In this document: in pieces, positions 48,272 to 61,237 of the stretch
Layout of the letters: the number at the start of each line of letters is the position of its first letter
Position numbering within the stretch: position 1 is the first letter of the stretch
Assembly: GCA_965229305.1 (NCBI GenBank)
Contig: CBDDIZ010000011.1
Span: 236-64,235 of the forward strand
Length of the DNA stretch: 64,000 nucleotides
Direction of reading: 5' to 3'
Source: Bryobacteraceae bacterium
GTDB lineage: Bacteria; Acidobacteriota; Terriglobia; Bryobacterales; Bryobacteraceae
The notes under the pieces: generated by a model
The model's database searches: none
Told to the model about the DNA's origin: nothing
Seen by the model: the letters and a program-made list of their open reading frames with translations, nothing else
Made by a program: the position numbers and the translations under genes

Positions 48272-48307
48272 CCGGGCCGGCGATTCAGAAAGAGAGATTA
48301 AAACAAG

Positions 48308-48973
48308 ATGGCCAAAATTCGAATTCTGTTGGCGGACGACCATACCCTGTTCCGTCAAGGTATTAAAACTCTCATCAATGCCGAAGCGGACATGGAGGTC
48401 GTTGGCGAAGCCGCCAACGGAGGAGACGCTGTCGATAAGGCCGGCGAAGTACGCCCGGACCTCGTCCTGATGGACATCGGCATGCCCGGCCTGTCCAGCT
48501 TCGAGGCGACGCGCCAGATCAAAAAGAATCGGCCCGAAACCAAGGTTTTGCTGCTCACCATGTACGACGACGAGGATTATCTCGTCGAAGGCATGGAAGT
48601 GGGCGCCAGCGGCTACGTCCTCAAGGACAGCCCCACCCAACAACTGGTCGCGGCCATCCGCGACATCTGCCGTGGCGGCAGCTACCTCAGCCCGCGCATG
48701 CTCTCGCAGTTGGTTGACGACTTCCGCACCCGCATCAAGAGCGCGAACCGCCTGCCCCGCTTCGCCACGCTCACCACGCGCGAACGCGAAGTGCTCAAGC
48801 TGCTCGCTGAAGGCAATTCGGTGAAGGAAATCGCCTGCGACCTGAACCTGAGCGTCAAGACCGTTGAAGCTCACAAGTTCAACCTGATGCGCAAGCTCGA
48901 TATCCACAACAAGGCGCAACTGGTGCAGTACGCCATCCAGAAGAAGATCATCAAGATCCCCAACCTCGTCTAG
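48308..48973 (+). CDS. NarL/LuxR-family response regulator
   Basis: Receiver domain (ILLADDH, DLVLMDIGMPG). LuxR HTH (LTTREREVLKLLAEGNSVKEIACDLNLSVKTVEAHKFNLMRKL). Confidence 0.9.
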   Translation: MAKIRILLADDHTLFRQGIKTLINAEADMEVVGEAANGGDAVDKAGEVRPDLVLMDIGMPGLSSFEATRQIKKNRPETKVLLLTMYDDEDYLVEGMEVGASGYVLKDSPTQQLVAAIRDICRGGSYLSPRMLSQLVDDFRTRIKSANRLPRFATLTTREREVLKLLAEGNSVKEIACDLNLSVKTVEAHKFNLMRKLDIHNKAQLVQYAIQKKIIKIPNLV

Positions 48974-49049
48974 TTTTTTGTCCGCTGGTAGCTGGAGTGT
49001 CTCACGAAGGGGCCCGAAATGGGCCCTTTCGGCGTTACAATCAGGCCAG

Positions 49050-49946
49050 ATGACTCCCCTTTCGCGCCGTTCTCTGCTCGCTTCCGCCTTGGCCGCTCCG
49101 GCCGCCCTCTCCGCCGCTCCCCGCCTGCCCATCAAAAAGGCCGTGCTGCTCTCGATGCTGCCGGCGGACCTGAGCTTCAACGAGCGTTTCCAACTCGCCG
49201 CCGACTGCGGCTTCGAACAGGTAGAGGCGTACACCGTGGCCGACGAGAAGACAGCCGAGGAGATTAAGAAGGCCTCCGACCTCGCGAAGGTGCCGATTCA
49301 CTCGGTCATGAATTCGGACCATTGGAAGTTCCCCCTCTCCTCGCCCGACCCCGAAGTCGTCGCCAAGTGCCGCACCGGCATGGAAACCAGCATCCGCAAT
49401 GCGAAGCTCTGGGGCGCCGAGACCGTGCTCCTGGTGCCTGCGGTGGTGGATGCCAAGACCAGCTACGCCGATGCCTGGAAGCGTTCGCAGGCCGAGATCC
49501 GCAAGATGATCCCGCTGGCCAAGGAGTCGAAGGTCATCATCGCCGTGGAAGAGGTCTGGAACAAGTTCCTCACCAGCCCGCTCGAGTTCGCGCGTTACGT
49601 CGACGAGTTCAAGAGCCCTTGGGTCCGCGCTTACTTCGACGTCGGCAACGTGGTGCTGTTCGGCTTCCCGCAGGACTGGATCCGGACGCTCGGCCCGCGC
49701 ATCGTCAAGCTGCACATCAAGGACTTCCGCTTCAAGGCCACGCCGACTTCCGGCGGCAAGAACGTCGCCGACTTCTGCGACCTGCGCGAAGGCCAGATCG
49801 ATTGGCCCGAGATCTACAAAGCCCTCGCCGAGATTGGCTACAAGGGAAGCGCCACTGTCGAGTTGGGCCGCGGCGATAAGGCCAAGCTCACCGAGATCAG
49901 CCGGCGCTTTGACCTGATCCTGACGGGTGCTCCGCTCGGCTCGTAA
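49050..49946 (+). CDS. Sugar phosphate isomerase/epimerase (xylose-isomerase-like TIM barrel) with Tat-like signal
   Basis: SRRSLLASALAAPAALSA. TIM-barrel motifs IAVEEVWNKF, YFDVGNV, HIKDF. Confidence 0.8.
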   Translation: MTPLSRRSLLASALAAPAALSAAPRLPIKKAVLLSMLPADLSFNERFQLAADCGFEQVEAYTVADEKTAEEIKKASDLAKVPIHSVMNSDHWKFPLSSPDPEVVAKCRTGMETSIRNAKLWGAETVLLVPAVVDAKTSYADAWKRSQAEIRKMIPLAKESKVIIAVEEVWNKFLTSPLEFARYVDEFKSPWVRAYFDVGNVVLFGFPQDWIRTLGPRIVKLHIKDFRFKATPTSGGKNVADFCDLREGQIDWPEIYKALAEIGYKGSATVELGRGDKAKLTEISRRFDLILTGAPLGS

Positions 49947-50110
49947 ACTCGCGCGTCAAGGCAGCCCGTCACCTTAGCGACGGCGAAGCTCGGCGTCGGC
50001 CGCCTCGCCCAGTACAAAGCAACGGCCTGCCAGCACACCCGAGACATACGGATGCCGCGGGTTCTCCCCGCCATGGGTAGCCGCTACATGGACTGGCGAT
50101 CAGGCACGCG
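49897..50110 (-). pseudogene. Decayed, internally deleted copy of the qhpE (small subtilisin) gene
   Basis: Matches 51528-~51622 and then ~52035-52153 of the intact gene, so about 410 bp are missing. Residual translation contains FAVAKVTGCLDAR versus FAVANVTGCLAREL. The start codon is lost. Confidence 0.6.
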
Positions 50111-50474: not shown

Positions 50475-51230
50475 ACAACAGGGCGGCCAGGGCCGCGCGA
50501 AGGTCCGGAAGAACGCTTGGGTTCCCCCGAGAACCTGAGAGGCGAGTTCGTTTGTTTTGAGCGAGATCGCCGGGTTTGTTTTCTAACTTTTATTCTTCGG
50601 GCGGGTGGTTTTTGAGGTTGCGGGCGAAGTGGGTGAGGTGACGCGGCGTGTCGAGGCTGACGGGGTGGGGGGGCGCCAGCCACGATGTGAGGCGACGATG
50701 TCGTCGACGAGTTCGCAGATCTGTTCGAAGGAGGCCGGGTTGTCTCCTTCGAGGACGGCGTTGATGGCGTCGTTGATCAGGGGCCAGAGATGCTCCTGGG
50801 TGGGGGAGTCAGTGGGATGGCTTTTGACGAGGACCACACGGTGGTCCGGGTGGTTGGCCTGGAGCTCTTCTTCGTACGCGCGGCGGCGTGCTTCGCGCCG
50901 CTTTTCGAGTTCGGCGTCAGTTAGAAGGACCCAGTGGCGTCCGGAACTGAAGTCCGGGACGGGCAGCGAATCGTAGTCGAAGTCAGTGTAACGAGTCATG
51001 ACGGAGTTCTCCGAGGGTGAGAGTAACAGGTCACTTCGGATCTCCGGCCCGGCCGTGGGGCTCCGGTCCTTTGCCTTCAGGGAGTTACGAGAAACGAATT
51101 CTTCGTGACCGGGGAATGGCGGCGCGTCGGAGGGTGAGCGACTTCGATCCCGCGGGAGCGTTTTTGCGGGCACCGGTTAAGGGGGAGAGGGGAGAAGGTG
51201 GCGGCGGCGTGGGAACGGGCGCGGTCGGGG
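50475..51230 (-). repeat. Repeat R, copy 1 (~0.75 kb; intact ORF)
   Basis: Aligns by eye along its length with 60516-61237 in the same orientation. Includes the ORF, ~100 bp of 3' non-coding sequence and ~230 bp of 5' region. Confidence 0.85.
50583..50999 (-). CDS. Hypothetical protein of repeat R (138 aa), family not recognised
   Basis: ATG at 50999 is preceded by GGAGAACTCCGTC. Sequence MTRYTDFDYDSLPVPDFSSGRHWVLLTDAELEKRREARRRAYEEELQ... A second, frameshifted copy lies at 60625-61040. Confidence 0.5.
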   Translation of the reverse strand: MTRYTDFDYDSLPVPDFSSGRHWVLLTDAELEKRREARRRAYEEELQANHPDHRVVLVKSHPTDSPTQEHLWPLINDAINAVLEGDNPASFEQICELVDDIVASHRGWRPPTPSASTRRVTSPTSPATSKTTRPKNKS

Positions 51231-51381: not shown

Positions 51382-51577
51382 GGCGGCAAGAACGTCGCCG
51401 ACTTCTGCGACCTGCGCGAAGGTCAGATCGATTGGCCCTGAGATCTACAAAGCCCTCGCCGAGATTGGCTACAAGGGAAGCGCCACTGTCGAACTGGGCC
51501 GCGGCGATAAGGCCAAGCTCACCGAGATCAGCCGGCGCTTTGACCTGATCCTGACTGGCGCTCCGCTCGGCTCGTAA
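51382..51577 (+). pseudogene. Duplicated 3' fragment of the sugar phosphate isomerase gene
   Basis: Near-identical to 49752-49946. I counted about six differences, including a 1-nt insertion at 51439 that creates an in-frame TGA. There is no 5' part of the gene. Confidence 0.8.
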
Positions 51578-52145
51578 GCTCGCGCGCCAGGCAGCCCGTC
51601 ACATTGGCGACAGCGAAACTCACCCCATGCAGGTTTGCCTTCGGCGGCCGCCCCGGAATGGGGCGCGGCCAGCCGCAGGCTTCGTAATTCGGCCCGTAGC
51701 GGTCGCGCGGAATGCGGTCGTCCCAACGCACCGCGATCACTCCCGGCAGCGACCCGGGCAGCGTCTCCGCCGCAGCTATCAGGCGAATGCCTAGTTCCGC
51801 CGCGCGCCGCACCCGTTCGGCGAAGCGCTCGCGATGAGCCTCGTTCGGCGTCCCTAACGACAGGTTGATCAAGTCCACCGGCTGCGCCAGCGCCCAATCG
51901 AGCGCCTCGAGCAGAACGTCGATCGAGGTCACCAACTGCTGATGGAAGATCTTGGCGATGTAGAGCTCGGCGTCGGGCGCCTTCTCGCAAATGGCTCCCG
52001 CCACGGCCGTCCCGTGGCCCAGATAGTCCAGGTAGAAGTCGTCCGCCTCGCCAGGCACAAAGCAACGGCCCGCCACCACCCCCGCGATATGGGGATGCCG
52101 CGGGTTCACCCCGCTATCGATCACCGCTACACGGACTGGCGGCAA
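51528..52145 (-). CDS. qhpE: Small subtilisin-like serine protease, QhpE-type (leader peptidase of the gamma subunit)
   Basis: 205 aa. Triad contexts VAVIDSGVN, LGHGTAVAG, HGVSFAVANVTG. Last gene of the qhp operon. Confidence 0.7.
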   Translation of the reverse strand: MPPVRVAVIDSGVNPRHPHIAGVVAGRCFVPGEADDFYLDYLGHGTAVAGAICEKAPDAELYIAKIFHQQLVTSIDVLLEALDWALAQPVDLINLSLGTPNEAHRERFAERVRRAAELGIRLIAAAETLPGSLPGVIAVRWDDRIPRDRYGPNYEACGWPRPIPGRPPKANLHGVSFAVANVTGCLARELTSRAERQSGSGQSAG

Positions 52146-53752
52146 TGCACGCGCCCTTCCCGCAACTCCAGCACCTCGCCCATAGCCTGCTCCGGCTGAT
52201 GCGTAATCAGCAACGTGGTGCGGCCCTGCGCCGCCCGCTTCAGCGTCCCCATCACGTCGGCCGCCGTCGCGGCATCCAGGGCGGCCGTGGGTTCATCCAG
52301 CAGCAACACCAGGGGTGCGCGCAGCAACGCCCGCGCCACCGCCACGCGTTGCCGTTCGCCGGCGGAAAGCGCCGTGCCCCGTTCGCCGGCCATCTGGTCC
52401 AGCGGCAAGCTCAAGGCCGCCTCGCGCGCCGCCCGCTCAATCTCCGCGACGGCCGCCTGCGGGCGCGCGTAAGCGATGTTATCGGCCATGGTCGTGTTGA
52501 ACAGAATCGGTGTTTGCTCCACGATGGCGATCTGGTCTCGCAGCACGGCGAGCGGCCATTCCCGCAAGGGCCTTCCGTCGAGCAGAATCTCGCCCGAGGT
52601 AGGGTCGTAGAGCCGGGCCAGCAGATCCACGAGAGTCGACTTGCCGGCCCCGCTCGCCCCCAGCAGCGTGTACGCTTGGCCGGCCTTCAGGCGAAAGCTG
52701 GCCCCCGTCAAGACGCCTTCGAACTGCACCTCGCGGAACTCGATCTCTCCTCTGAGAGGCGCCGCCGCGCCGCCGGGGTCGCGCACCTCGACGGGCAGAT
52801 CGAAGACCTCAAACACCCGCCGCAGCGACACCGCGCCGGTGACCAGGCCGCCATAGAGCGACATCAGGCTTTGCACCGGCCCCAGCAGACGGCCATGGTA
52901 GGCGAGGAAGGCGATCAACGCCCCCAGCGTCATCGTGCCGTCCAGCACCTGCTGGCCGCCGAGCAGAAACACGGCCGCCGTCGAGAGCGTAACGGCCGTG
53001 GTGGGGATGGCGCCGGCCACGAAGTTCGTCCGCTGCATCCGCAGCAAGGCCTCGACGAAGCCATGGTTCGCTGCCCGGAAGCGTTCGGCTTCGCGCTCCT
53101 GCGCGTTGCTCAGTACGGTGAGCCGCAAGCCGGTGAGCGACTCGATCAGGAAGCTGCCGATCGACGCACTGCGCTCCCGCAGCACGCGCACCTGGCTCGC
53201 GAGCCGATGCTGCATCCGGCGCACCAACCATAACGTCAGCGGCAACACGGCCACGCTCACCGCGAACAGCAACGGACTGAGCCGTAGCATCAGCACCGCC
53301 GCTCCGGAGAGGAACAGGACGTTGGCTAGCAGAGCGAGCAACGTATCGGCGGTGACGCGCTGCACTTCGGCGATGTCGTTGCTCAAGCGCGAGACAAAGT
53401 CACCGAGCCGCGCGTGCGCATGACGCCGCGGCGACAGCGCCTGCAGATGGCGATACATGTCGAGCCGCATAGCGAAGAGCACGGCTGCCGACACGCGCAC
53501 GTAAGCGTAGCTGGAGGCGACGTTCAGCACAAACCCCACGACGGTGAGCAAGGCCATCAACCCGGCGGCCTGCCACAGGGTTGGCATGTCGCGCGCGAGT
53601 AAGCCTTCATCCACCAGGCGCTGATTCAGCAGCGGCACCAGCAGACCCGCGGCCGTAGAGAACAGGCTGAGGAGGATGATGCCCGCCAGCGCCGCGCGAT
53701 GCGGCGTCAGATACGGCAGCACGCGCCGGTACTCGCTAAGCTTGGCTTCCAT
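52127..53752 (-). CDS. qhpF: ABC exporter, fused permease/ATPase (QhpF-type)
   Basis: Six N-terminal TM helices. Walker A GASGAGKST, signature LSAGERQR, Walker B LLLDEPTAALD. Confidence 0.8.
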   Translation of the reverse strand: MEAKLSEYRRVLPYLTPHRAALAGIILLSLFSTAAGLLVPLLNQRLVDEGLLARDMPTLWQAAGLMALLTVVGFVLNVASSYAYVRVSAAVLFAMRLDMYRHLQALSPRRHAHARLGDFVSRLSNDIAEVQRVTADTLLALLANVLFLSGAAVLMLRLSPLLFAVSVAVLPLTLWLVRRMQHRLASQVRVLRERSASIGSFLIESLTGLRLTVLSNAQEREAERFRAANHGFVEALLRMQRTNFVAGAIPTTAVTLSTAAVFLLGGQQVLDGTMTLGALIAFLAYHGRLLGPVQSLMSLYGGLVTGAVSLRRVFEVFDLPVEVRDPGGAAAPLRGEIEFREVQFEGVLTGASFRLKAGQAYTLLGASGAGKSTLVDLLARLYDPTSGEILLDGRPLREWPLAVLRDQIAIVEQTPILFNTTMADNIAYARPQAAVAEIERAAREAALSLPLDQMAGERGTALSAGERQRVAVARALLRAPLVLLLDEPTAALDAATAADVMGTLKRAAQGRTTLLITHQPEQAMGEVLELREGRVHCRQSV

Positions 53753-53755
53753 TCT

Positions 53756-54760
53756 TCAGACCTTGTAGTAGCACATGTAGCCGGAGTGGCAGTGCGCCGG
53801 CGACTCCCGCAGCGCGATCGCGCGCTCAATCACCGTTGGCTTCGGCACCCCAGCCCGCACGCGTTTCACGATATCGGCCACCATCTTGACGCTTGCGAAC
53901 TTCTTGAGGGGCGCGGCTTCGCGGCCCACGATCTTCAGCGACTCTACACCCATCCGCGCCAGGTCCGGAATGGCACACAGGCCGCACGGGCCATAGGGCA
54001 GTCCCTTGGCCGTTGAGCCGCAGCCATTGCCGTTCAGATACCAAACCCACTCGCGATAGTCCTCGAGGTTGCGGCGCAACCAAGCCCGGCGCCGCGTCGA
54101 GAAGTAGCCGCCGTGCCATTCGAACTCCGTCTTCATCTCCGACAGGCTGGTGCAGAAGGCGCCCACCGAATGGTGATGCGTGGTCGCGCAGAAGCCTTCT
54201 TCAAAGGCGCACCCGTCGTTCAGCATGAAGACCTCGATCTCGCACTGGCCACGCGTGGCGGCGGTGAGGTTGCCGATCTCCGCCAAGGTCACCGAGCGTG
54301 GCAGGATGACGCGGGTGGGCCCGAAGTTCAACAGGAAGCGAATCGCCTCGACATTCAAAGCGGCGGCGACGGAACTGACGTGCGCGCCGGCGTGCAACCG
54401 CAACTCGCTTAGGCGCAGCAGCAGGTTGACGTCGGTGACGATGAAGGCGTCGACGCCGCAGTCTTCGCTGAGCCGGGTGGCGAGTTCGACGACTAATTCG
54501 GTTTGCTCGGCCGTGTAATAGGGCGCGTTGAAGGTGACGAACAAGGGCAGGCCGCGCGCATGAGCGGCATCGGCGAGCGCGCGCAGATCGGCGAAGGTTT
54601 CGAGCGAACTGCCCTTCGTGGAGCGGCGGTTCAGCCACACCGCGCCCTGGTAACGTTCGAGCCATTCTCGCGGGACGAAGCCGCAGAAGAGCTCCTCAGC
54701 GCCGGCGGCGTGGAGCATCTCGAGTTCGTCGAGCTCGCGAATGGGGGCCAGGATCTTCAT
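53756..54760 (-). CDS. Peptidase-U32-family protein (UbiU/UbiV/RlhA/TrhP superfamily)
   Basis: MKILAPIRELDELEMLHAAGAEELFCG, GVDAFIVTDVNLL, RVILPRSVTLAEI. EIEVFMLNDGCAFEEGFC resembles the U32 signature E-x-F-x-H-G-[SA]-[LM]-C-x4-G-x-C. Further Cys residues in FCTSL and GPCGLC. Confidence 0.8.
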   Translation of the reverse strand: MKILAPIRELDELEMLHAAGAEELFCGFVPREWLERYQGAVWLNRRSTKGSSLETFADLRALADAAHARGLPLFVTFNAPYYTAEQTELVVELATRLSEDCGVDAFIVTDVNLLLRLSELRLHAGAHVSSVAAALNVEAIRFLLNFGPTRVILPRSVTLAEIGNLTAATRGQCEIEVFMLNDGCAFEEGFCATTHHHSVGAFCTSLSEMKTEFEWHGGYFSTRRRAWLRRNLEDYREWVWYLNGNGCGSTAKGLPYGPCGLCAIPDLARMGVESLKIVGREAAPLKKFASVKMVADIVKRVRAGVPKPTVIERAIALRESPAHCHSGYMCYYKV

Positions 54761-55653
54761 GCGGCTGCCTTCGCTTCCGCTAGCAGCGGGACGCGCGGCT
54801 GGATGTTCAGGCGCCGCACTTGCCCTTGCCGCGCGGCCGTTAGGAGGGACGCCACCAGGGCCGGCGTGTGCGTGTAGAAGTAGGTGTTGCCTTTGAGCCA
54901 GAAGCGCTGGTCGCGGTTCTCAAAGGGCGAGTTGGTATAGCTGTGTTCGAGCAAAAACGTCTGACACTCGTGGCGGCAAGGGGCAGCGGGCTGGAACTTG
55001 TCGGCTTTGGTATAGCCGAGCCCGGCCGCCTGGCAGACGCGGGCCGTGGAGATGAAGCCATAGGGCAGGTACGCGGCCAAGTCGATGCCGGCGCCGAAGT
55101 CGTTACCTTGGGGCAGTCCGTCGATCTCGGCCAGCCGCACATCGAAGCGGCGCAGCATGGCCAGATAGGCGCGATTGTCGAGGTTCGAACCTTGCAGGAC
55201 ACGCAGGGTGGGGCTGGCGGGTGCCTCGGCGTAAAGGCTCATCACGCGCGGGTCGCGCAGGCTCTTGTGGAGCAGGCGGCCTTGTACGGGGACCAGTGCC
55301 GGATAGTCGCGGCGCAGCACATTCAGCACGCCCCAGTCGTTGAAGACGACTTCGTCGCCGGGGCGCAAGCTGGCGAACAGAGGGAGCAGTTTGGCGAGGC
55401 CGCGGTCGCTCACGTAGGGCGTCAGCAGCGTGAAAGGCTTGGGGCAGGCGGCGCGTACGTTCGCGAGGCTCCCGGGGATGAGGTGCTCGCAGAACTCGGT
55501 GCCGTAGAGGTAGCGGTCCACGGGCAGATCGCCCACTTGCGCGGCGACCCCTGTGAGCCACGGCCGCAGCTTCTCGCTGGTTTCCCACCGGAAGGCTTCG
55601 CCGAGAGTGGCGATGCACTCAGCCGAGTCGCGGATGTGGAGCGCGACTTCCAT
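54757..55653 (-). CDS. Divergent U32-like protein (possible partner subunit), otherwise hypothetical
   Basis: 4-nt overlap with the downstream U32 gene. EVVFNDWGVLNVLRRDYPALVPVQGRLL resembles the U32 ...D.A.L.....P... segment. Cys residues in YGFISTARVCQAAG and APCRHEC. The call rests on weak by-eye similarity. Confidence 0.4.
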   Translation of the reverse strand: MEVALHIRDSAECIATLGEAFRWETSEKLRPWLTGVAAQVGDLPVDRYLYGTEFCEHLIPGSLANVRAACPKPFTLLTPYVSDRGLAKLLPLFASLRPGDEVVFNDWGVLNVLRRDYPALVPVQGRLLHKSLRDPRVMSLYAEAPASPTLRVLQGSNLDNRAYLAMLRRFDVRLAEIDGLPQGNDFGAGIDLAAYLPYGFISTARVCQAAGLGYTKADKFQPAAPCRHECQTFLLEHSYTNSPFENRDQRFWLKGNTYFYTHTPALVASLLTAARQGQVRRLNIQPRVPLLAEAKAAA

Positions 55654-55660
55654 GCCTGGT

Positions 55661-56725
55661 TTAGTTCAGCACCGGGACGAGCGAGGTGGTCATGTCGGCG
55701 GCGACATCGATGTCCTTCACCAGTTGCAGAGTCTGGGCATCGTACAGCTCGATCGTGTTGCCGGCGCCGTAGATGATGATGTGCTTGCCATCGGAGGTGA
55801 GGCCGAGGCTGAACCGCGTGCGGCCGGCAAAGGTGGCGCGCTTGACGATTCTGGGACCCGTCATGTCGATGATGACGAACTCGCAGTGGCGGTCGCCGTG
55901 TTCGCCGCTGATGGTGACGGTGTAGCCGGTTTTGCGGTCGGGCGAGAGGCGCAGGCCGGTCATGCCCTGGACGGCGGGCCCGATGGGAGTGAAGTCGATC
56001 TTGCGGGTGCTGAGGTTCAGATGCGCGATGCCCCACATGCGTTTGTGGACGATGGGGTCCGTGCTGTTGAAGATGGCGGTCATCATGCCCGGGGCGTCAT
56101 GCGGGTCGTCGGCGGGCGAAAGAAAGATGGACTCCATGCCGGGGAAGGCTGGGCGCGAGAGCTCGATGGTCTCCACGAGTTTGAAGTCGGCCGTATCGAA
56201 GATGTAGATGTTGTCGCGGAAGACCCACAGGTACTTGCCGTCGGGTGAGACTTTGAACTGCCCTCGGCCGCCGAAGGCGGAGGCTTCTTTGGGGATGTCG
56301 GCGGTACGGACGATCTTCTTCTCCTTGAGGTCAACGACGGCGAACTTGGGCTTATCGACTTCGAAACGGTCGATTTTCTTCTCGGCGATGGTGACGGAGA
56401 GATAGAGGAAGCGATCGGTGGGATCGAGCCCGCCGCCGCCGATGCGGACTTTTTTGTTGGCGGTGCCGAGGGTGAAGGAGTCGATCACTTTGCGGGAGGC
56501 GAGGTCGATGGTTTCGACGCCCGAGTCCCGGGTGGTGACGGCGATGAGCTTTTTGCGGTCCTGCGAGAGGTAGAGTGTCCGCGCGACGTCGGTCTGCAGC
56601 TTGATGCGGTCGACGACGGCGACACGGGCTTCGTCGATCACCAGCAGGTCGCGCGGCCAGCCGCCGACGTACAGGTAGGTGGGGTCGGCGGCGAAGGCAA
56701 GTAAGTAGGTGAGGGTCGTCAACAT
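55661..56725 (-). CDS. qhpB: Quinohemoprotein amine dehydrogenase beta subunit (7-bladed beta-propeller), QhpB-type
   Basis: 354 aa with signal peptide MLTTLTYLLAFAA. All-beta repeat character. Located immediately after the gamma-subunit gene, as in known qhp operons. Confidence 0.65.
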   Translation of the reverse strand: MLTTLTYLLAFAADPTYLYVGGWPRDLLVIDEARVAVVDRIKLQTDVARTLYLSQDRKKLIAVTTRDSGVETIDLASRKVIDSFTLGTANKKVRIGGGGLDPTDRFLYLSVTIAEKKIDRFEVDKPKFAVVDLKEKKIVRTADIPKEASAFGGRGQFKVSPDGKYLWVFRDNIYIFDTADFKLVETIELSRPAFPGMESIFLSPADDPHDAPGMMTAIFNSTDPIVHKRMWGIAHLNLSTRKIDFTPIGPAVQGMTGLRLSPDRKTGYTVTISGEHGDRHCEFVIIDMTGPRIVKRATFAGRTRFSLGLTSDGKHIIIYGAGNTIELYDAQTLQLVKDIDVAADMTTSLVPVLN

Positions 56726-56731
56726 GGTGGT

Positions 56732-57079
56732 TTATGGGAAGACGAGGTCGATGTTGCGCCAGTCTTTGGTGGCGCTGGCGCACTTGGTGGCCCAGTCCGG
56801 GTAGTTGTTGTAATGGTCGGGCACTTGGGCGGGCCAGAAGCAGGTGACGTAGCAGTCGTAAAGGTCGCGTTCGGCGGGCTGGCAGAGACCGGCGGTGCCG
56901 CCGGCGGAATCGACTTCCCAACCGGGCGAAAAGACAATGGAGCAGCCGACGGGATAGTGCGGCCGCGGGGCGGGCGGCCCGTTGCCGCCTTGTTGCAGCG
57001 CGTAGATATCGCCCTGCGAGGCCGCGACGTACTGTTCGATGCGCCGGGCTTTTTTATTGATCGCTTTCAGGTGCTTCAT
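56732..57079 (-). CDS. qhpC: Quinohemoprotein amine dehydrogenase gamma subunit precursor (CTQ- and thioether-crosslinked peptide), 115 aa
   Basis: MKHLKAINKK...GCSIVFSPGWE..GLCQPAERDLYDCYVTCFWPAQVPD. The C-x8-E, C-x5-D and C-x3-C-x-W-x5-D spacing equals the Cys7-Glu16, Cys27-Asp33, Cys37/Trp43 (CTQ) and Cys41-Asp49 pattern recalled for Paracoccus QhpC. Sits between the radical SAM and beta-subunit genes. Confidence 0.8.
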   Translation of the reverse strand: MKHLKAINKKARRIEQYVAASQGDIYALQQGGNGPPAPRPHYPVGCSIVFSPGWEVDSAGGTAGLCQPAERDLYDCYVTCFWPAQVPDHYNNYPDWATKCASATKDWRNIDLVFP

Positions 57080-57089
57080 GCGCGGTGCT

Positions 57090-58613
57090 CTATTGCAGAG
57101 GCTTCCTTTGTTCGAAGTGGTCGAGAAACGAGGGGTTCTGGACGGCGATGTCGCCGTAGATCTGGAGACAAACGTCGGTCCAGCCGCGAATCCAATCGCA
57201 GAAGTGCAGGTTCGGATGGCCGGTGTCGCCGTAGCGGACGAAGGCTTCGTGGTGGCAACCGCCGGCGCACAGCGGCCGGGCGAAGCAGGAGTGGCAATCG
57301 AACTTGGCGGAGATATGGCCGCGGTCGAGAAAGGCTTGCTGCTTTTCGCGATCGAGTCCGCCGGCGAGGACGTTGCCGAGGGCATGCGAGTCCGAGTCGA
57401 CGAAGCGATGGCAGGGAGCGATGTCGCCAGAAGGGCCGACGCCGACGAGGCCTAAGCCGGCTCCGCAAGGGTGCGACTTATTGATGCCCGCGTGGAGTTC
57501 GGCCAGCGTATCGGAGACGTTCGAGAAGCCATGCTGGCGGCCGGCGAGAGCCCAATCGCGGTATTCGGCGGCGAGCTCTTTGAACTGCTCGAAGATCCGG
57601 TCCAGGTGATTCGCTTCGATGGTGTAGAGTCGCTTGGGCGCCGCGGTGACCGGGGCGAAGCCGACCTCGGCGAAGCCGAACTCCTCGCGTAGATGATGGA
57701 AGATCTCTTTGACGTTGGTCACCTGCCGGGTGAGCGTGACGCGCGCGGCGATGGGACGTGTGGAGTGCTGAGCGATGAGCGCTTTCACCTTGGGGGCGAG
57801 CACGTCGTAGCTGCCTTTGCCGTTGGCGTAGACGCGCAGGGCGTCGTGCTGCTCCTTGGGGCCATCCATCGAGACGGTGACGCCAATGCGGTGTTCGACG
57901 AGGAAGTCGATGATCTCGGGGGTGAGCAGGGTGCCGTTGGTGGTGAGCGAGAAATCGAGGTATTGGCCGTGTTCGCGGGCTTTCGCGGTGGCGTAGTCGA
58001 CAACCCATTTCAGGAGCGGGAAGTTCATCAGCGTTTCGCCGCCGAAGAAGGTGAGGTGGACGGCGCGCCGGCCCTGGGCGGAGGCGAAGAGGTGATCGAC
58101 CGAAGCTTGCGCGACTTCGGTGCTCATGAACTTGGGTTTGCCGGAAGGCGTGGCCACCTTGTCCTCGCCGAACTCGTAGCAATATTGGCAGGAGAGGTTG
58201 CACTGGTTGGTGAGGTTCAGCACCAACGACTGCAAGGGGAAATTGGCGACGGGCTCCTGCGGCGGATCCTGGTGGCCTTGCGGGTCGCGGATGGCCCGGG
58301 CGGCGAGCAGATCGGTGACCGCCTCTTCGGCGTCGAGCGGAGTGAGTCCTTCGGCGACCAGGGCCGTCAGGAGTTCGCCAATGCGGCGCGGCTGGTCGCG
58401 GAGGAGGCGCAGGGCGCGGCCGGCGGCGGGAGAGACCGCGAAGATGCCGCCGCTGGGGACGAGGTAGAGAAACTGCGTGCCTTGGGTGGTGAACTCGTGA
58501 AACTCAGCCAGGCTGAGAGGCGCTAACGGGGCGGCCGAGGGGATACCGGTCATTCGCTCACTGGTCATTGGTCCATCGGTCAGGGGGCTGTCGGTCATGG
58601 GGCTGTCGGTCAC
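57090..58613 (-). CDS. qhpD: Radical SAM/SPASM peptide maturase, QhpD-type
   Basis: CNLSCQYCYE radical-SAM cluster motif. C-terminal SPASM Cys clusters (CGAG..C, CHSCFARPLCAGGCHHE). GTG start overlaps the qhpA stop (GTGA). Confidence 0.9.
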   Translation of the reverse strand: MTDSPMTDSPLTDGPMTSERMTGIPSAAPLAPLSLAEFHEFTTQGTQFLYLVPSGGIFAVSPAAGRALRLLRDQPRRIGELLTALVAEGLTPLDAEEAVTDLLAARAIRDPQGHQDPPQEPVANFPLQSLVLNLTNQCNLSCQYCYEFGEDKVATPSGKPKFMSTEVAQASVDHLFASAQGRRAVHLTFFGGETLMNFPLLKWVVDYATAKAREHGQYLDFSLTTNGTLLTPEIIDFLVEHRIGVTVSMDGPKEQHDALRVYANGKGSYDVLAPKVKALIAQHSTRPIAARVTLTRQVTNVKEIFHHLREEFGFAEVGFAPVTAAPKRLYTIEANHLDRIFEQFKELAAEYRDWALAGRQHGFSNVSDTLAELHAGINKSHPCGAGLGLVGVGPSGDIAPCHRFVDSDSHALGNVLAGGLDREKQQAFLDRGHISAKFDCHSCFARPLCAGGCHHEAFVRYGDTGHPNLHFCDWIRGWTDVCLQIYGDIAVQNPSFLDHFEQRKPLQ

Positions 58614-60412
58614 TGGGCGACCTCGGGCTGATCCCAGCGCATGTACATGGGGACGGCGACGACCAGATAGGTCTTGGCGGTGAGGGGCGTGGTAGCGCCA
58701 GGCGGCGTAAAGGTGGCGACCACCCAGACATCGCCGTAGTTGTTGGCGTTGAACTTGCGCTTCTCGTTGGGGCCTTCGAGGTTCGGGGTGAACAGGCCAT
58801 CAGCGCTGAGCGAGCCGACGAACTCCTTGTCATCATCGCCATAGTGGGAGGCGAACTCCTCGAGCGACCACTTCGCTTTCACCGGACCGAGCGGGACGTC
58901 GTCGGCCGTGTGGGGCTTCCCATCGAGGCCGTTGGACCAGGCGGTCGCTTCGAACTGGTAGAAGCCTTTGGGGTGCGTGTTGCCGCCGAGGCGGGCGAGG
59001 GCGCTGCCGGGCGTTTTGAGGTAGTCGATTTTCTGGTAGACGGCGAGGGCGCCGGGCAGCCCGGTGCGGCGAACGAAGATGTCGCGTTTCCCGGTGACGG
59101 CTTGCGCGGCGACGTCGACCTTGAGGGTGAGGCCGGTGGGCGATTGCGCGGTGATGGCGGTGACGGTGAGGCCGGTACCGAGGTCGAGGTCGGCGGGGGT
59201 GAGGCCGGTGGGCAGGCCATCGCCTAGGAGGCGCAGGGTGGCGCCTTTGGCGCCGGCGGGAAGCGCCTCAAGGTCAGTGGTGAGCAGAAGAGGACCGTCA
59301 CCGGCACGGCGGAGGGTGACGTCATAGCCGAACTCGTTATATCCGCCCCAGAACCAGCGCCCTTCGGCGGATTGCTGATCGCGGGAGAAGGTCATCACTT
59401 CCCGTTCTTCTTCGTGGGAGTTCGCGGTGGAGCGGCCGCGCCAGGCATAGCCGGTATAGACCACCGCTTTACCGGTGCGGGTGACCTTTTCGCCGGTTTG
59501 GAGCGAGGTGAGCGTGGTGCGAGCGGTGAACTCGTCGGGGCCGGCGTTCTCGATGATCATTTCGCCGACGAATTTGCCTTGGCCGGGGAGGACGGCGGTG
59601 ACGGCCCACCGGCCGGCCAGTTTGGGGGCGCGGCGGGTCGCCTGCCACTGAGCCCATTCGGGAGTGTGCAACGGGTTCGATTTGGCGAAGTGTTCGAGGG
59701 CGAGCTCGAAGGGCTCTTTGGCGGGAGGCGCTGGATTGGACGCCGGAGCCGGGGGACTGCCGCGGCCGGGCGGGCGGCGGAAGGAGGTGAACTCGACGAC
59801 CGGGAAGTAGCCGCGGTGCATGGCGCCCAGCAGGTCCCACTCTTCTTTGGTGCGTCGCCAGGAGTTGGGCTGGGCGAGCGGGTGGCAGGCGGCGCAGGAG
59901 TCGCGCAAGGTGTCCGAAGGGAGGACTTCGCTTTCCGGCTGGCGCTTCTCCCAATACCAGGCGACGGGCTTAGCTTCTTCGGGGGCGAGGCCATGGGTTT
60001 CGCTGAGGGCTTTGACGATTTCGCGCGCTTCGGCGGGGCTGAGAGCGAGGCCATTCAAGCGGACCATGCGTTTGATGATCTGCTGCCAGCCTTCGGGCGT
60101 GGTGCGTTCAAAAGCGAGCCGGGTGAGGTGGCCCTGGCCGTCGTCGCGATGGCAGCCGCCGCATTTGGCTTTGACGGTGGCGTTGGTGACGGGGATGCCG
60201 GGCTCGGGTCTTGCGCCAGGGGTGGCGGGCGGAGCAGTTTGAGCGAGCAGGAGGGAGCCGGCAGCGAACAGGAGGACAGCGGCGCGGGTCAGCAGCAAGA
60301 TGGGCTCCCTTCGAATGGACTTTTCGACAGTACGGACGGGGACAACACGACGCAAGGCTGCAGGGTTGCGACGAGGTCGGCGGAGACCTTGAGTTTTTGA
60401 TCGTAGTCGCAT
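58610..60412 (-). CDS. qhpA: Quinohemoprotein amine dehydrogenase alpha subunit (di-haem cytochrome c domain + beta domains), QhpA-type
   Basis: CGGCH and CAACH. RTTPEGWQQIIKRMVRLNGLALSPAEAREIVKAL is typical of the QhpA haem domain. Signal/anchor LLTRAAVLLFAAGSLLLAQT. The true start may lie downstream of 60412. Confidence 0.8.
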   Translation of the reverse strand: MRLRSKTQGLRRPRRNPAALRRVVPVRTVEKSIRREPILLLTRAAVLLFAAGSLLLAQTAPPATPGARPEPGIPVTNATVKAKCGGCHRDDGQGHLTRLAFERTTPEGWQQIIKRMVRLNGLALSPAEAREIVKALSETHGLAPEEAKPVAWYWEKRQPESEVLPSDTLRDSCAACHPLAQPNSWRRTKEEWDLLGAMHRGYFPVVEFTSFRRPPGRGSPPAPASNPAPPAKEPFELALEHFAKSNPLHTPEWAQWQATRRAPKLAGRWAVTAVLPGQGKFVGEMIIENAGPDEFTARTTLTSLQTGEKVTRTGKAVVYTGYAWRGRSTANSHEEEREVMTFSRDQQSAEGRWFWGGYNEFGYDVTLRRAGDGPLLLTTDLEALPAGAKGATLRLLGDGLPTGLTPADLDLGTGLTVTAITAQSPTGLTLKVDVAAQAVTGKRDIFVRRTGLPGALAVYQKIDYLKTPGSALARLGGNTHPKGFYQFEATAWSNGLDGKPHTADDVPLGPVKAKWSLEEFASHYGDDDKEFVGSLSADGLFTPNLEGPNEKRKFNANNYGDVWVVATFTPPGATTPLTAKTYLVVAVPMYMRWDQPEVAQ

Positions 60413-60515: not shown

Positions 60516-61237
60516 CAAACAGCAGGGCGGCCGAGGCCGCGATGGTCCGGAAAAACGCTTGGGTTCCCGCGGGAACCTGAGAGGCGAGTTCGTTTGTTTT
60601 GAGCGAGATCGCCGGGTTTGTTTTCTAACTTTTATTTTTTGGCTGGTGGTTTTTGAGGTTGCGGGCGAGGTGGGTGAGGTGACGCGGCGTGTCCAGACGG
60701 ACAGGGCGGGGGTTGCGCCAGCCACGATGTGAGGCGACGATGTCGTCGACAAGTTCGCAGATCTGTTCGAAGGCGGCCGGGTGGTCTTCTTCGAGAACGG
60801 CGTTGATGGCGTCGTTGATCAGGGGCCACAGATGCTCCTGGGTGGGCGAGTAAGTGGGATGGCTTTTGACGAGGACCACACGGTGGTCGGGTGGTTGGCC
60901 TGGAGCTCTTCTTCGTACGCGCGGCGGCGTGCTTCGCGCCGCTTTTCCAGTTCGGCGTCAGGTAGAAGGACCCAATGGCGTCCGGAACTGAAGTCCGGGA
61001 CGGGAAGCGAGTCGTAGTCGAAGTCAGTATAACGAGTCATGACGGAGTTCTCCGAGGGTGAGAGTAACAGGTCACTTACGATCTGCGGGCCGGCGGAGTG
61101 GATCAGATCTTTTGTCTTCAGGAAGTTACGAGAAACGAATTCTTCGTGAACGGGAACTGGCGGCGGGGCGGAACGTGAGGGGGCGCCGATGGAGGCGGAG
61201 AAGGTGGCGCGGCTTGGCAACGGGTGAGGTCGGTGAG
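60516..61237 (-). repeat. Repeat R, copy 2 (frameshifted ORF)
   Basis: Aligns with 50475-51230 and is roughly nine-tenths identical by eye in the ORF part. Contains the perfect 16-bp palindrome GGTTCCCGCGGGAACC at 60562-60577. Confidence 0.85.
60625..61040 (-). pseudogene. Frameshifted copy of the repeat-R ORF
   Basis: A 1-nt deletion near 60888 (GGTGGTCGGG versus GGTGGTCCGGG in copy 1) splits the reading frame into track ORFs 60819-61220 and 60625-60879. Confidence 0.75.

What the first reader, a model, noticed from the sequence alone, without database searches (positions are those of the whole stretch)
53756..55653. A U32-family gene pair sits where the flavin monooxygenase QhpG is expected in the qhp operon
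In the characterised qhp operons (Paracoccus denitrificans and Pseudomonas putida, qhpADCBEFG(R)), conversion of the gamma-subunit Trp into cysteine tryptophylquinone needs the FAD-dependent monooxygenase QhpG. I see no FAD/NAD(P)-binding monooxygenase ORF anywhere in this window. Instead, two genes overlapping by 4 nt lie between qhpB and the exporter. 53756-54760 is a clear peptidase-U32-family protein with a U32-signature-like EVFMLNDGCAFEEGFC and extra Cys residues. 54757-55653 looks like a divergent second U32-like subunit. Established knowledge: U32 members UbiU/UbiV (a heterodimer), RlhA and TrhP are Fe-S-containing, O2-independent hydroxylases rather than proteases. Inference: this pair could be an O2-independent hydroxylase that oxygenates the QhpC tryptophan, giving an oxygen-independent route to a tryptophylquinone cofactor. 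I am not aware that this has been described. A less exciting alternative is a peptidase role in leader removal.
Basis: partly seen in the sequence, partly recalled or inferred. Interest (0 to 1): 0.8.

Follow-up and report, generated by a model that had tools for sequence, protein, structure and literature searches.

The report
U32 iron-sulfur pair replacing QhpG
In this amine-dehydrogenase (qhp) operon, the oxygen-requiring flavin enzyme that normally starts building the enzyme's tryptophan-derived quinone cofactor is missing. In its place is a conserved pair of iron-sulfur 'U32' proteins related to the oxygen-independent hydroxylase UbiU/UbiV, which points to an undescribed, possibly oxygen-free way of making the cofactor.

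Summary
On the minus strand the window carries qhpA-D-C-B, then two genes overlapping by 4 nt (P2 54757-55653, P1 53756-54760), then qhpF-qhpE. No QhpG-like gene lies anywhere in the 64 kb.

- **P1** is a clear U32 protein (PF01136, E=2.8e-28) and retains the UbiU cluster cysteines.
- **P2** matches no Pfam or NCBIfam model. It belongs to a large unannotated family (1,757 clusters at 50% identity) with four invariant Cys in the UbiV arrangement. Profile-profile comparison aligns all four onto the UbiV ligands. Five of five informative distant members sit next to a U32 gene.
- **Association with qhp.** In 66 metagenome loci with close P2 homologues, qhpB is upstream in 36/36, P1 is downstream in 35/35, and none has a QhpG-like gene.
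- **Exclusivity.** Of 80 species-level qhp loci, 57 carry a QhpG-type gene, 3 carry the pair, 20 carry neither, and none carries both.
- **Substrate.** QhpC keeps every residue needed for the cofactor.

Best reading (confidence about 0.6): a UbiU/UbiV-like two-subunit Fe-S hydroxylase that replaces QhpG in hydroxylating the QhpC tryptophan. This is inference. No biochemistry exists, and an unlinked qhpG elsewhere in the genome could not be excluded. No paper in the searched library describes this.

The parts
58610..60412 (-). qhpA, quinohemoprotein amine dehydrogenase alpha (dihaem) subunit
   Evidence: NCBIfam TIGR03908 at 500 bits (cutoff 274). Pfam Qn_am_d domains II-IV and Dehyd-heme_bind also match.
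57090..58613 (-). qhpD, radical SAM/SPASM maturase that forms the thioether crosslinks in QhpC
   Evidence: NCBIfam TIGR03906 at 602 bits (cutoff 453).
56732..57085 (-). qhpC, gamma subunit and precursor of the cysteine tryptophylquinone cofactor
   Evidence: NCBIfam NF037958 at 136 bits (cutoff 50). The core motif GC..F.PGWE.D...LCQP.E.DLY.C...CFWPAQVPD is conserved, including the cofactor Trp and Cys.
55661..56725 (-). qhpB, beta-propeller subunit
   Evidence: NCBIfam TIGR03907 at E=2e-17, below its cutoff. Its position is conserved in all related loci.
54757..55653 (-). P2, a 298-aa UbiV-like partner subunit (putative [4Fe-4S] protein) from a previously unannotated family
   Evidence: - No Pfam or NCBIfam hit.
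- 433 close homologues and 1,757 clusters at 50% identity.
- C55, C207 and C230 are invariant and C226 is at least 90% conserved.
- hhalign against a 9-sequence UbiV family: local probability 65%, E=6e-5; global probability 87.5%, E=4e-7, with all four Cys on the UbiV ligands.
- The AF2 model (pLDDT 83) is a beta/alpha barrel type.
- A U32 gene lies next to every informative homologue.
53756..54760 (-). P1, a 334-aa U32-family protein, the UbiU-like catalytic-type subunit (putative [4Fe-4S] protein)
   Evidence: - PF01136 at E=2.8e-28.
- hhalign against the UbiU family: probability 99.8%, E=1.4e-27 over 284 columns.
- Nine invariant Cys: 26, 184, 191, 203, 247, 259, 262, 324, 330.
- Foldseek rank 2 is 5d88, the U32 peptidase Mk0906.
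- Overlaps P2 by ATGA.
52127..53752 (-). qhpF, ABC exporter of the processed gamma subunit
   Evidence: Pfam ABC_membrane plus ABC_tran. Its position is conserved downstream of P1.
51528..52145 (-). qhpE, subtilisin-like leader peptidase, possibly with an altered C-terminus
   Evidence: NCBIfam NF049966 QhpE at 144 bits (cutoff 165) and Pfam Peptidase_S8. Its last roughly 20 codons lie inside a duplicated segment.
50496..51138 (.). Left copy of a ~0.65-kb direct repeat that brackets the operon
   Evidence: the repeat finder families D1, D2, D4 and D6, 86-93% identical to 60538-61179, with a spacing of 10,041 nt.
60538..61179 (.). Right copy of the direct repeat that brackets the operon

Best explanation
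P1 (U32, UbiU-like) and P2 (UbiV-like) are two co-translated subunits of an iron-sulfur hydroxylase that is an integral part of a variant qhp operon, qhpADCB-P2-P1-FE.

**Proposed action.** It takes over the job of the FAD monooxygenase QhpG. After QhpD has installed the thioether crosslinks in QhpC in the cytoplasm, the pair introduces the two hydroxyl groups on the indole ring of the cofactor tryptophan (the W of CFWPAQ). QhpE then removes the leader and QhpF exports the subunit.

**Proposed chemistry.** By analogy with UbiU/UbiV, TrhP and RlhA, the reaction would not use O2. Prephenate is the proposed O donor for UbiU-V, with the [4Fe-4S] clusters carrying electrons.

**Shown here:** operon membership, U32 identity of P1, a UbiV-like Cys architecture and remote homology for P2, obligatory P1-P2 pairing, and mutual exclusion with QhpG-type genes in qhp loci.

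**Inferred:** heterodimer formation, Fe-S binding, the substrate (QhpC Trp), and oxygen independence.
For: **Operon membership**
- Tight or overlapping gene spacing in the window.
- The same order in Blastocatellia and other Acidobacteriota MAGs.
- In 66 metagenome loci: qhpB upstream 36/36, P1 downstream 35/35, qhpF/E downstream 19/22.

**Exclusion with QhpG**
- 0/66 pair-type metagenome loci have a QhpG-like gene.
- Of 80 species-level qhp loci, 29 have a QhpG-like gene, 28 a short divergent QhpG-like gene, 3 the pair, 20 neither and 0 both. Fisher p=0.02 at species level.
- In sphingomonads the short QhpG-like gene sits between qhpB and qhpF, the same slot as the pair.

**Chemistry fits**
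- P1 is U32, and hhalign to the UbiU family gives 99.8%.
- The cluster Cys are conserved in both proteins. The ligand identities come from PMC6747719.
- U32 enzymes hydroxylate aromatic carbons without O2, and UbiU-V stands in for class A flavin monooxygenases (PMC6747719; PMC10990095). QhpG is the same kind of flavoenzyme. It matches the FAD_binding_3 Pfam family and inserts two O atoms from O2 (PMC7876137).

**The need remains.** QhpC keeps the cofactor Trp/Cys and the crosslink residues.

**Pairing is general.** Five of five informative distant P2-like proteins abut a U32 gene.

**Coupling to QhpD.** The QhpD tree sorts by accessory type, as expected if QhpD works in complex with its hydroxylase. 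The QhpCDG ternary complex is documented in PMC7876137.
Against: - No activity data exist for this pair. Direct in vitro hydroxylation has not been shown for any U32 enzyme (PMC10990095).
- 20 of 80 qhp loci have neither a QhpG-type gene nor the pair within 10 kb. The hydroxylase can therefore be unlinked, and a qhpG elsewhere in this genome cannot be excluded. Only 64 kb was available.
- P2's link to U32/UbiV is remote: no Pfam hit, only weak HMM scores, and the best figure comes from global-mode hhalign, whose E-value is less well calibrated.
- Foldseek of the P2 model found only generic TIM barrels.
- The fourth P1 ligand is ambiguous (C247 or C259), and the alignments disagree about C203.
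- The association rests on few evolutionary events.
- From general knowledge, cultured Bryobacteraceae and Blastocatellia are mostly aerobes, so the selective reason for an O2-free route is unclear.
Confidence: 0.6

Rival explanations
1. The pair belongs to the qhp operon but performs a different maturation step. Examples are forming or oxidising the Cys-Trp quinone, hydroxylating another residue, or acting as a redox partner or chaperone of QhpD. Trp hydroxylation would then be done by an unlinked QhpG-type flavoenzyme or happen later in the periplasm.
For: - Twenty of 80 qhp loci have no linked hydroxylase candidate at all, including L031, L014 and L015, whose QhpD sequences lie among the pair-type ones. 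Unlinked or alternative routes therefore exist.
- P1 has five invariant Cys beyond the UbiU set: C26, C247 or C259, C262, C324 and C330. This hints at an extra metal site and perhaps different chemistry.
Against: - Strict mutual exclusion with QhpG-type genes (0 of 57 and 0 of 66).
- The pair occupies the same slot as the short QhpG-like gene.
- No other maturation step is known to need a dedicated cytoplasmic enzyme in QhpG-type operons (PMC7876137).
Confidence: 0.22
2. The pair is a protease, as the family name 'peptidase U32' suggests. It would process or degrade QhpC, for example by leader removal or quality control.
For: The family is named for reported collagenase activity of PrtC-type members, which Kimura et al. 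place in separate subfamilies (PMC5727448). P1 passes the PF01136 threshold.
Against: - The operon already encodes the dedicated leader protease QhpE and it is conserved downstream.
- QhpG-type operons need no second protease.
- The conserved features of both proteins are Fe-S-type Cys motifs, not a protease active site.
- Every functionally characterised member closest to P1 (UbiU, TrhP) is linked to hydroxylation.
Confidence: 0.06
3. The pair has nothing to do with the amine dehydrogenase. It would be an anaerobic ubiquinone or RNA hydroxylase that happens to lie inside the operon.
For: NCBIfam's best matches for P1 are UbiU and TrhP.
Against: - Both matches are far below the equivalog cutoffs (73 vs 440 bits, 46 vs 534 bits).
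- The close P2 subfamily is found only in qhp loci (36/36 and 35/35) across several acidobacterial classes.
- No SCP2/UbiT gene accompanies the pair here, whereas UbiT flanks ubiUV in E. coli and in the six annotated proteobacterial ubiUV loci fetched.
Confidence: 0.03

Closest known systems
UbiU-UbiV, the O2-independent ubiquinone hydroxylase of E. coli and other Proteobacteria
   Same: - Two adjacent, often overlapping genes.
- One clear U32 protein with a CX6C...C...C motif, plus a shorter partner whose first Cys lies far upstream of a C...CX3C group.
- Both stand in for class A flavin monooxygenases that hydroxylate an aromatic ring more than once.
- P1 vs the UbiU family: hhalign 99.8%. 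P2 vs the UbiV family: 65% local, 87.5% global.
   Different: - P1 scores 73 bits against the UbiU equivalog (cutoff 440) and is only about 29% identical over the N-terminal 190 residues.
- P1 groups with other P2-partnered U32 proteins, not with UbiU.
- P1 carries extra invariant Cys.
- Gene order is partner first.
- There is no UbiT/SCP2 lipid carrier.
- The presumed substrate is a crosslinked 12-kDa protein, not a prenylated phenol.
QhpG, the FAD-dependent monooxygenase of canonical qhp operons (NCBIfam NF049967)
   Same: Same operon context and, in the sphingomonad variant, the same position between qhpB and qhpF. The two are mutually exclusive across qhp loci. The proposed reaction is the same: dihydroxylation of the QhpC tryptophan.
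   Different: There is no sequence or fold relationship. QhpG is a Rossmann-fold flavoprotein that uses O2 (PMC7876137). The pair consists of TIM-barrel-type Fe-S proteins.
TrhP and RlhA, U32 proteins needed for O2-independent hydroxylation of tRNA U34 and 23S rRNA C2501
   Same: U32 domain, conserved four-Cys motif, and hydroxylation of an sp2 ring carbon. TrhP has an O2-dependent alternative, TrhO, giving dual pathways.
   Different: They are single-subunit proteins with C-terminal extensions and act on RNA. P1 scores 46 bits against the TrhP model (cutoff 534).
Mk0906, the U32 protein of Methanopyrus kandleri (PDB 5d88)
   Same: It is the only solved U32 structure found. The P1 model matches it at Foldseek E=6e-6 with TM 0.56 on the target.
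   Different: Its function is unknown, and it is not among the top 50 matches of the P2 model.

Membership tests
Peptidase U32 family (Pfam PF01136) | Score above the Pfam gathering threshold - P1 | tested here: met
   99.2 bits against a cutoff of 22.4, E=2.8e-28, residues 99-331.
Peptidase U32 family (Pfam PF01136) | Score above the Pfam gathering threshold - P2 | tested here: not met
   - No hit for P2 or for any of 56 close homologues, even at E<=10.
- 5 of 106 distant family members give weak PF01136 hits, best E=0.0045.
- Only profile-profile comparison shows the relationship.
UbiU (NCBIfam NF047963 equivalog) | Score above the curated cutoff | tested here: not met
   73 bits against a cutoff of 440, and only residues 1-193 match. 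P1 is UbiU-like but is not UbiU.
UbiU-type [4Fe-4S] site | Four Cys in a CX6CX16CX38C motif (C169, C176, C193, C232; PMC6747719) | tested here: inconclusive
   - C184 and C191 align unambiguously with C169 and C176.
- C203 aligns with C193 in MAFFT but not in hhalign.
- UbiU C232 (YPTLC) corresponds best to C259 (LPYGPC).
- All these Cys are 100% conserved in 120 homologues.
UbiV-type [4Fe-4S] site | CXnCX12CX3C, with the first Cys far upstream (C39, C180, C193, C197; PMC6747719) | tested here: met
   P2 has C55-X151-C207-X18-C226-X3-C230. Three are invariant and C226 is at least 90% conserved over 106 diverse members. Global hhalign places them on the four UbiV ligands. The spacing of the middle gap differs (18 vs 12).
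UbiU-UbiV-type two-subunit enzyme | The two proteins form a heterodimer and are encoded side by side | not testable with these tools
   Only the genetic proxy could be tested: a 4-nt overlap in the window, P1 downstream of P2 in 35/35 loci, and a U32 gene adjacent to five of five informative distant P2-like proteins. No multimer prediction was available.
UbiU-UbiV-type two-subunit enzyme | O2-independent, prephenate-dependent hydroxylation | not testable with these tools
   This needs anaerobic reconstitution or 18O-shikimate labelling. The basis is analogy with PMC10990095.
qhp (quinohemoprotein amine dehydrogenase) operon | Structural genes qhpA, qhpB, qhpC plus the maturation genes qhpD, qhpE, qhpF | tested here: met
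   NCBIfam scores: qhpA 500 (cutoff 274), qhpD 602 (453), qhpC 136 (50). qhpB (63) and qhpE (144) are below their cutoffs but are the best hits and syntenic. qhpF is an ABC exporter.
qhp (quinohemoprotein amine dehydrogenase) operon | qhpG flavin monooxygenase (NF049967) in the operon | tested here: not met
   - No tblastn or HMM hit in the 64-kb window.
- No Rossmann motif at the start of any ORF of 250 aa or more.
- The rest of the genome was not available.

The most novel reading that the evidence does not exclude
The pair is the first U32 hydroxylase that acts on a protein. It would be an O2-independent (prephenate-type) peptidyl-tryptophan dihydroxylase that gives an anoxic route to a tryptophylquinone cofactor.

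The unannotated P2-like family (about 1,750 clusters at 50% identity) would then mark a widespread, unrecognised class of two-subunit U32 enzymes. These would work alongside radical SAM maturases on ribosomal peptides and cofactors.
Probability: 0.45. Interest if true: 0.85.

Novelty: new variant of a known kind. Interest (0 to 1): 0.74.

Why it matters
- **An O2-free route to a quinone cofactor.** Tryptophylquinone cofactors are thought to need molecular oxygen for the first ring hydroxylation. In QHNDH this is done by QhpG, which works next to the oxygen-sensitive radical SAM enzyme QhpD. A U32 Fe-S pair in QhpG's place would remove that conflict and allow the cofactor, and amine oxidation linked to it, to be made without O2.
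- **A new substrate class for U32 enzymes.** It would extend U32 hydroxylases from quinone lipids and RNA to proteins. It would add a third case of paired O2-dependent and O2-independent hydroxylation routes, after UbiIHF vs UbiUV and TrhO vs TrhP.
- **A tractable assay.** A small, soluble, mass-spectrometry-friendly substrate (QhpC) could give the in vitro assay that the U32 field still lacks (PMC10990095).
- **Annotation.** About 1,750 clusters of 'hypothetical proteins' can be read as UbiV-like partners of U32 enzymes.

Tried and rejected
- **Pairwise BLAST** of P2 against UbiV and against P1 gave nothing significant.
- **hhalign against a single UbiV sequence.** The close P2 alignment gave nothing. 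The diverse alignment gave probability 2%. The signal appeared only after building a 9-sequence UbiV family from plasmid records.
- **P2 HMM against UbiV** scored 2.5 bits, which is not meaningful on its own.
- **Pfam on P2 relatives.** Ten short distant P2-like proteins gave no U32 hit.
- **Sequence searches of the PDB** with P1, A1 and A2 found no relative.
- **Foldseek of the P2 model** gave only generic TIM barrels with TM about 0.3.
- **tblastn with one QhpG** missed the divergent short QhpG-like genes. I replaced it with HMMs.
- **Clustering of unassigned ORFs** in the 14 reasonably complete qhp loci with neither hydroxylase type found no shared alternative enzyme. It found only antisense shadow ORFs, TonB-type receptors and PQQ-type dehydrogenases.
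- **A false literature lead.** A preprint with 44 'U32' hits is about residue U325 of a selenoprotein.
- **Literature searches** for quinohemoprotein + U32, tryptophylquinone + prephenate, and U32 + RiPP found nothing relevant.
- **Source organism.** It could not be named from the cluster or contig look-ups. The nearest named relatives are Bryobacteraceae MAGs.
Full report
**1. What is in the sequence**

On the minus strand between 51.5 and 60.4 kb there is one tightly packed operon:

| Gene | Coordinates | Product / size |
|---|---|---|
| qhpA | 58610-60412 | alpha subunit |
| qhpD | 57090-58613 | radical SAM maturase |
| qhpC | 56732-57085 | gamma subunit |
| qhpB | 55661-56725 | beta subunit |
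| P2 | 54757-55653 | 298 aa |
| P1 | 53756-54760 | 334 aa |
| qhpF | 52127-53752 | ABC exporter |
| qhpE | 51528-52145 | leader peptidase |

- NCBIfam and Pfam identify qhpA, qhpD and qhpC above their curated cutoffs. qhpB and qhpE are best hits below cutoff. qhpF is an ABC exporter.
- P2 and P1 overlap by ATGA. P2 starts 7 nt after qhpB, and qhpF starts 3 nt after P1.
- P1 matches PF01136 Peptidase_U32 (E=2.8e-28).
- P2 matches nothing in Pfam or NCBIfam.
- The arrangement qhpB-P2-P1 recurs, with an identical P2 protein, in three independent assemblies. It is not an assembly artefact.

**2. Is QhpG really missing?**

I took bona fide QhpG sequences from plasmid-borne qhp operons of Pseudomonas nitroreducens, Paracoccus seriniphilus and Leisingera. 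The first two were scanned with NCBIfam and score 529 and 390 bits against NF049967 (cutoff 240).

- Neither tblastn nor an HMM of these sequences finds anything in the 64-kb window.
- An HMM of a divergent short QhpG-like protein (section 5) also finds nothing.
- A crude scan finds no N-terminal Rossmann GxGxxG motif in any ORF of 250 aa or more.
- The rest of the genome is not available. The source contig is 68.8 kb.

**3. What P1 is**

- P1 has 518 detectable homologues. The top 120 are 66-84% identical, and all carry PF01136.
- Against a small UbiU family built from E. coli and eight plasmid or chromid copies, hhalign gives probability 99.8%, E=1.4e-27 over 284 columns.
- P1 is not UbiU. 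The UbiU equivalog scores 73 bits (cutoff 440) and TrhP 46 bits (cutoff 534).
- Nine Cys are invariant: C26, C184, C191, C203, C247, C259, C262, C324 and C330.
- The UbiU cluster ligands are C169, C176, C193 and C232 in a CX6CX16CX38C motif (PMC6747719).
  - P1 C184 and C191 align with the first two in every alignment.
  - C203 aligns with C193 in MAFFT (VGAFC vs IGAC) but not in hhalign.
  - UbiU's YPTLC232 lines up with P1's LPYGPC259.
- The AF2 model (pLDDT 77, low in the Cys loops, as expected without the cluster) has the U32 structure 5d88 as its second-best PDB match (E=6e-6).

**4. What P2 is**

- *Family size.* P2 has 433 close homologues, almost all unnamed, from Bryobacteraceae, Blastocatellia and other Acidobacteriota. 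A profile search of 1.84 billion cluster representatives finds 1,757 at E<=1e-3 and 343 at E<=1e-30. This is a large family with no Pfam model.
- *Conserved residues.* In 106 diverse members (25-53% identical to P2) the invariant residues include G51, E53, C55, D106, G108, G125, R126, C207 and C230. C226 is at least 90% conserved.
- *Cys pattern.* This gives C-X151-C-X18-C-X3-C. UbiV has C39-Xn-C180-X12-C193-X3-C197, with its first Cys also far upstream (PMC6747719).
- *Homology statistics.*

| Comparison | Result |
|---|---|
| P2 family vs UbiV single sequence | probability 2% |
| vs 9-sequence UbiV family, local mode | probability 65%, E=6e-5, 87 columns, C55 on C39 |
| vs UbiV family, global mode | probability 87.5%, E=4e-7, 249 columns, all four Cys on the UbiV ligands, C-terminal VRL..Q motif also aligned |
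| Yardstick: UbiU family vs UbiV family | probability 95%, E=2e-8 |
| P2 family vs P1 family | probability 38%, E=3e-4, same register |
| P2 family vs UbiU family | probability 58%, E=1e-4, same register |

- PF01136 is the most frequent weak Pfam hit among P2-like proteins (5/106).
- The AF2 model (pLDDT 83, pTM 0.84) alternates strands and helices and matches only TIM barrels.
- *The strongest argument is genomic.* Five of five informative distant P2-like proteins sit directly next to a PF01136 gene, often overlapping it. These are P0388, P0344, P0303, P0376 and P0268.
- Those U32 partners form a group with P1 (28-35% identity over the full length), distinct from UbiU. They share C26, a CGxC motif and a C-terminal Cx5C.
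- I conclude that P2 is a remote, UbiV-like member of the U32 superfamily and the dedicated partner of P1-type U32 proteins. Heterodimer formation and Fe-S binding are inferred.

**5. Association with qhp**

*Forward direction.* A metagenome scan with the close P2 alignment returned 66 loci. Wherever the contig reaches far enough:
- qhpB lies upstream in 36/36;
- P1 lies downstream in 35/35, in 10 cases with 0.4-5.5 kb of inserted genes between them;
- qhpF or qhpE follows in 19/22;
- no locus has a QhpG-like gene (0/66).

Blastocatellia and other acidobacterial MAGs show the same order.

*Reverse direction.* A scan of one genome per species with a QhpD alignment returned 80 qhp loci from Acidobacteriota, Gemmatimonadota, Sphingomonadales and others. 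HMM classification gave:

| Accessory gene within 10 kb | Loci |
|---|---|
| QhpG-like | 29 |
| Short (~330 aa) divergent QhpG-like protein | 28 |
| The U32 pair (L030, L044, L066) | 3 |
| Neither | 20 |
| Both | 0 |

- The short divergent protein scores 61.6 bits against NF049967, with LodB and GoxB next.
- In sphingomonads it lies between qhpB and qhpF, exactly where the pair lies here.
- Fisher's exact test gives p=0.02 for the species set and about 1e-10 if 19 complete metagenome loci are added.
- These loci are not independent. In an NJ tree, QhpD sorts by accessory type with only a few switches, so the p-values overstate the evidence.
- That sorting is itself informative. QhpD, QhpC and QhpG form a ternary complex (PMC7876137), so QhpD should co-evolve with whatever hydroxylase it works with.

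**6. Is the hydroxylation still needed?**

QhpC from pair-type operons keeps the whole core GC..F.PGWE.D....LCQP.E.DLY.C...CFWPAQVPD. This includes the three thioether Cys with their Glu/Asp partners, the cofactor Cys, and the cofactor Trp, which is the W before P. The preceding Trp of the Pseudomonas and Paracoccus sequences is Phe here. The residue assignments rest on my reading of the published numbering (Trp43, Cys37). QhpC does not differ systematically between pair-type, QhpG-type and 'neither' loci. The same cofactor is therefore expected, and something must hydroxylate the Trp.

**7. Mechanism proposed**

- QhpG is a class A-type flavin monooxygenase that adds two O atoms from O2 to the crosslinked QhpC (PMC7876137).
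- In ubiquinone synthesis, flavin monooxygenases of the same kind (UbiI/H/F) are replaced under anoxia by the U32 Fe-S heterodimer UbiU-UbiV. That enzyme hydroxylates the ring at several positions with prephenate as the O donor (PMC6747719; PMC10990095).
- The pair here has the same composition, sits in QhpG's place, and excludes QhpG. The most economical reading is that P1-P2 hydroxylates the indole ring of the QhpC Trp without O2, next to the O2-sensitive QhpD.
- Operon membership, family assignment, Cys conservation, pairing and exclusion are shown. Substrate, O donor, cluster binding and dimerisation are inferred.

**8. Rivals**

- *A different maturation step, with an unlinked QhpG.* This cannot be excluded, because a quarter of qhp loci have no linked hydroxylase.
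- *A protease role.* This is unlikely, because QhpE is present and the conserved residues are Cys motifs.
- *An unrelated function.* The 36/36 and 35/35 synteny excludes this.

**9. Novelty**

No paper in the searchable library combines quinohemoprotein with U32, or tryptophylquinone with prephenate. The QhpG paper and the U32 papers I read do not mention such operons. The library is incomplete, since subscription journals are missing. I rate this a new variant of a known kind: a UbiU/UbiV-like hydroxylase recruited to protein cofactor biogenesis. It comes with a by-product, the recognition of a large unannotated partner family.

**10. Limits**

- There is no multimer prediction and no model coordinates to measure Cys-Cys distances.
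- The genome-contig scan kept 80 of at least 567 relatives, ranked by similarity to the window's QhpD, so the type frequencies are not population estimates.
- ORF calling was stop-to-stop.
- The tree has no support values.

Noticed in passing
window 50496-51138 and 60538-61179: Direct repeats of about 0.65 kb (86-93% identical, spacing 10,041 nt) bracket the entire qhp operon. Each contains a related ORF (50583-51173 and 60819-61220, minus strand). This suggests the operon sits in a duplicated or mobilised 10-kb unit.
   Followed up: partly
window 49752-50110 versus 51382-51589 and 52038-52153: The 3' end of the ORF at 48978-49946 is duplicated (95-98%) at 51382-51589, where it overlaps the last ~20 codons of qhpE. 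An 81% copy of the qhpE 5' end lies at 49995-50110. It looks like a tandem duplication with one copy largely deleted. qhpE (205 aa) scores below its NCBIfam cutoff, so its C-terminus may be altered.
   Followed up: partly
L006:14.9-15.9 kb (Novosphingobium sp. RL4) and 28 of the loci L010-L089: A short (~330 aa) divergent QhpG-like protein scores 61.6 bits against NCBIfam QhpG (cutoff 240) and has no Pfam hit. It is the accessory gene in many Bryobacterales, Terriglobia and sphingomonad qhp operons and is probably annotated as hypothetical.
   Followed up: partly
L090, L091, L094, L170 (metagenome and MAG contigs): Distant P2-like/U32 pairs lie in clusters rich in radical SAM, SPASM, B12-radical SAM, PqqD and methyltransferase genes. 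This suggests the two-subunit U32 module is used widely in peptide or cofactor maturation.
   Followed up: partly
L002:10939-11571, L005:4688-4942, and L103, L107, L108, L114: In 10 of 35 related loci, extra genes (Uma2-family, ParE-like toxin and others; 0.4-5.5 kb) are inserted between P2 and P1 or after P1. The 4-nt overlap seen in the window is therefore not universal.
   Followed up: no
L031, L014, L015, L010 and 16 other loci of L010-L089: Twenty of 80 qhp loci have neither a QhpG-type gene nor the U32 pair within 10 kb. They include a Blastocatellia locus (L031) whose QhpC is nearly identical to that of a pair-type locus (L044). Clustering of leftover ORFs found no shared alternative enzyme.
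   Followed up: partly
L002:8313-8855; L005:201-2440; L019:11808-14087: Some related operons carry an extra unannotated 180-aa ORF between qhpC and qhpB. Others carry two tandem qhpB-like genes.
   Followed up: no
window 46526-48973: A GAF/histidine-kinase-like ORF (46526-48271) and a LuxR-type response regulator (48308-48973) lie about 2.5 kb from the operon's qhpE end, that is, downstream of its last gene. They may regulate the operon in place of the AraC-type QhpR of Proteobacteria. I read this from the translations only.
   Followed up: no
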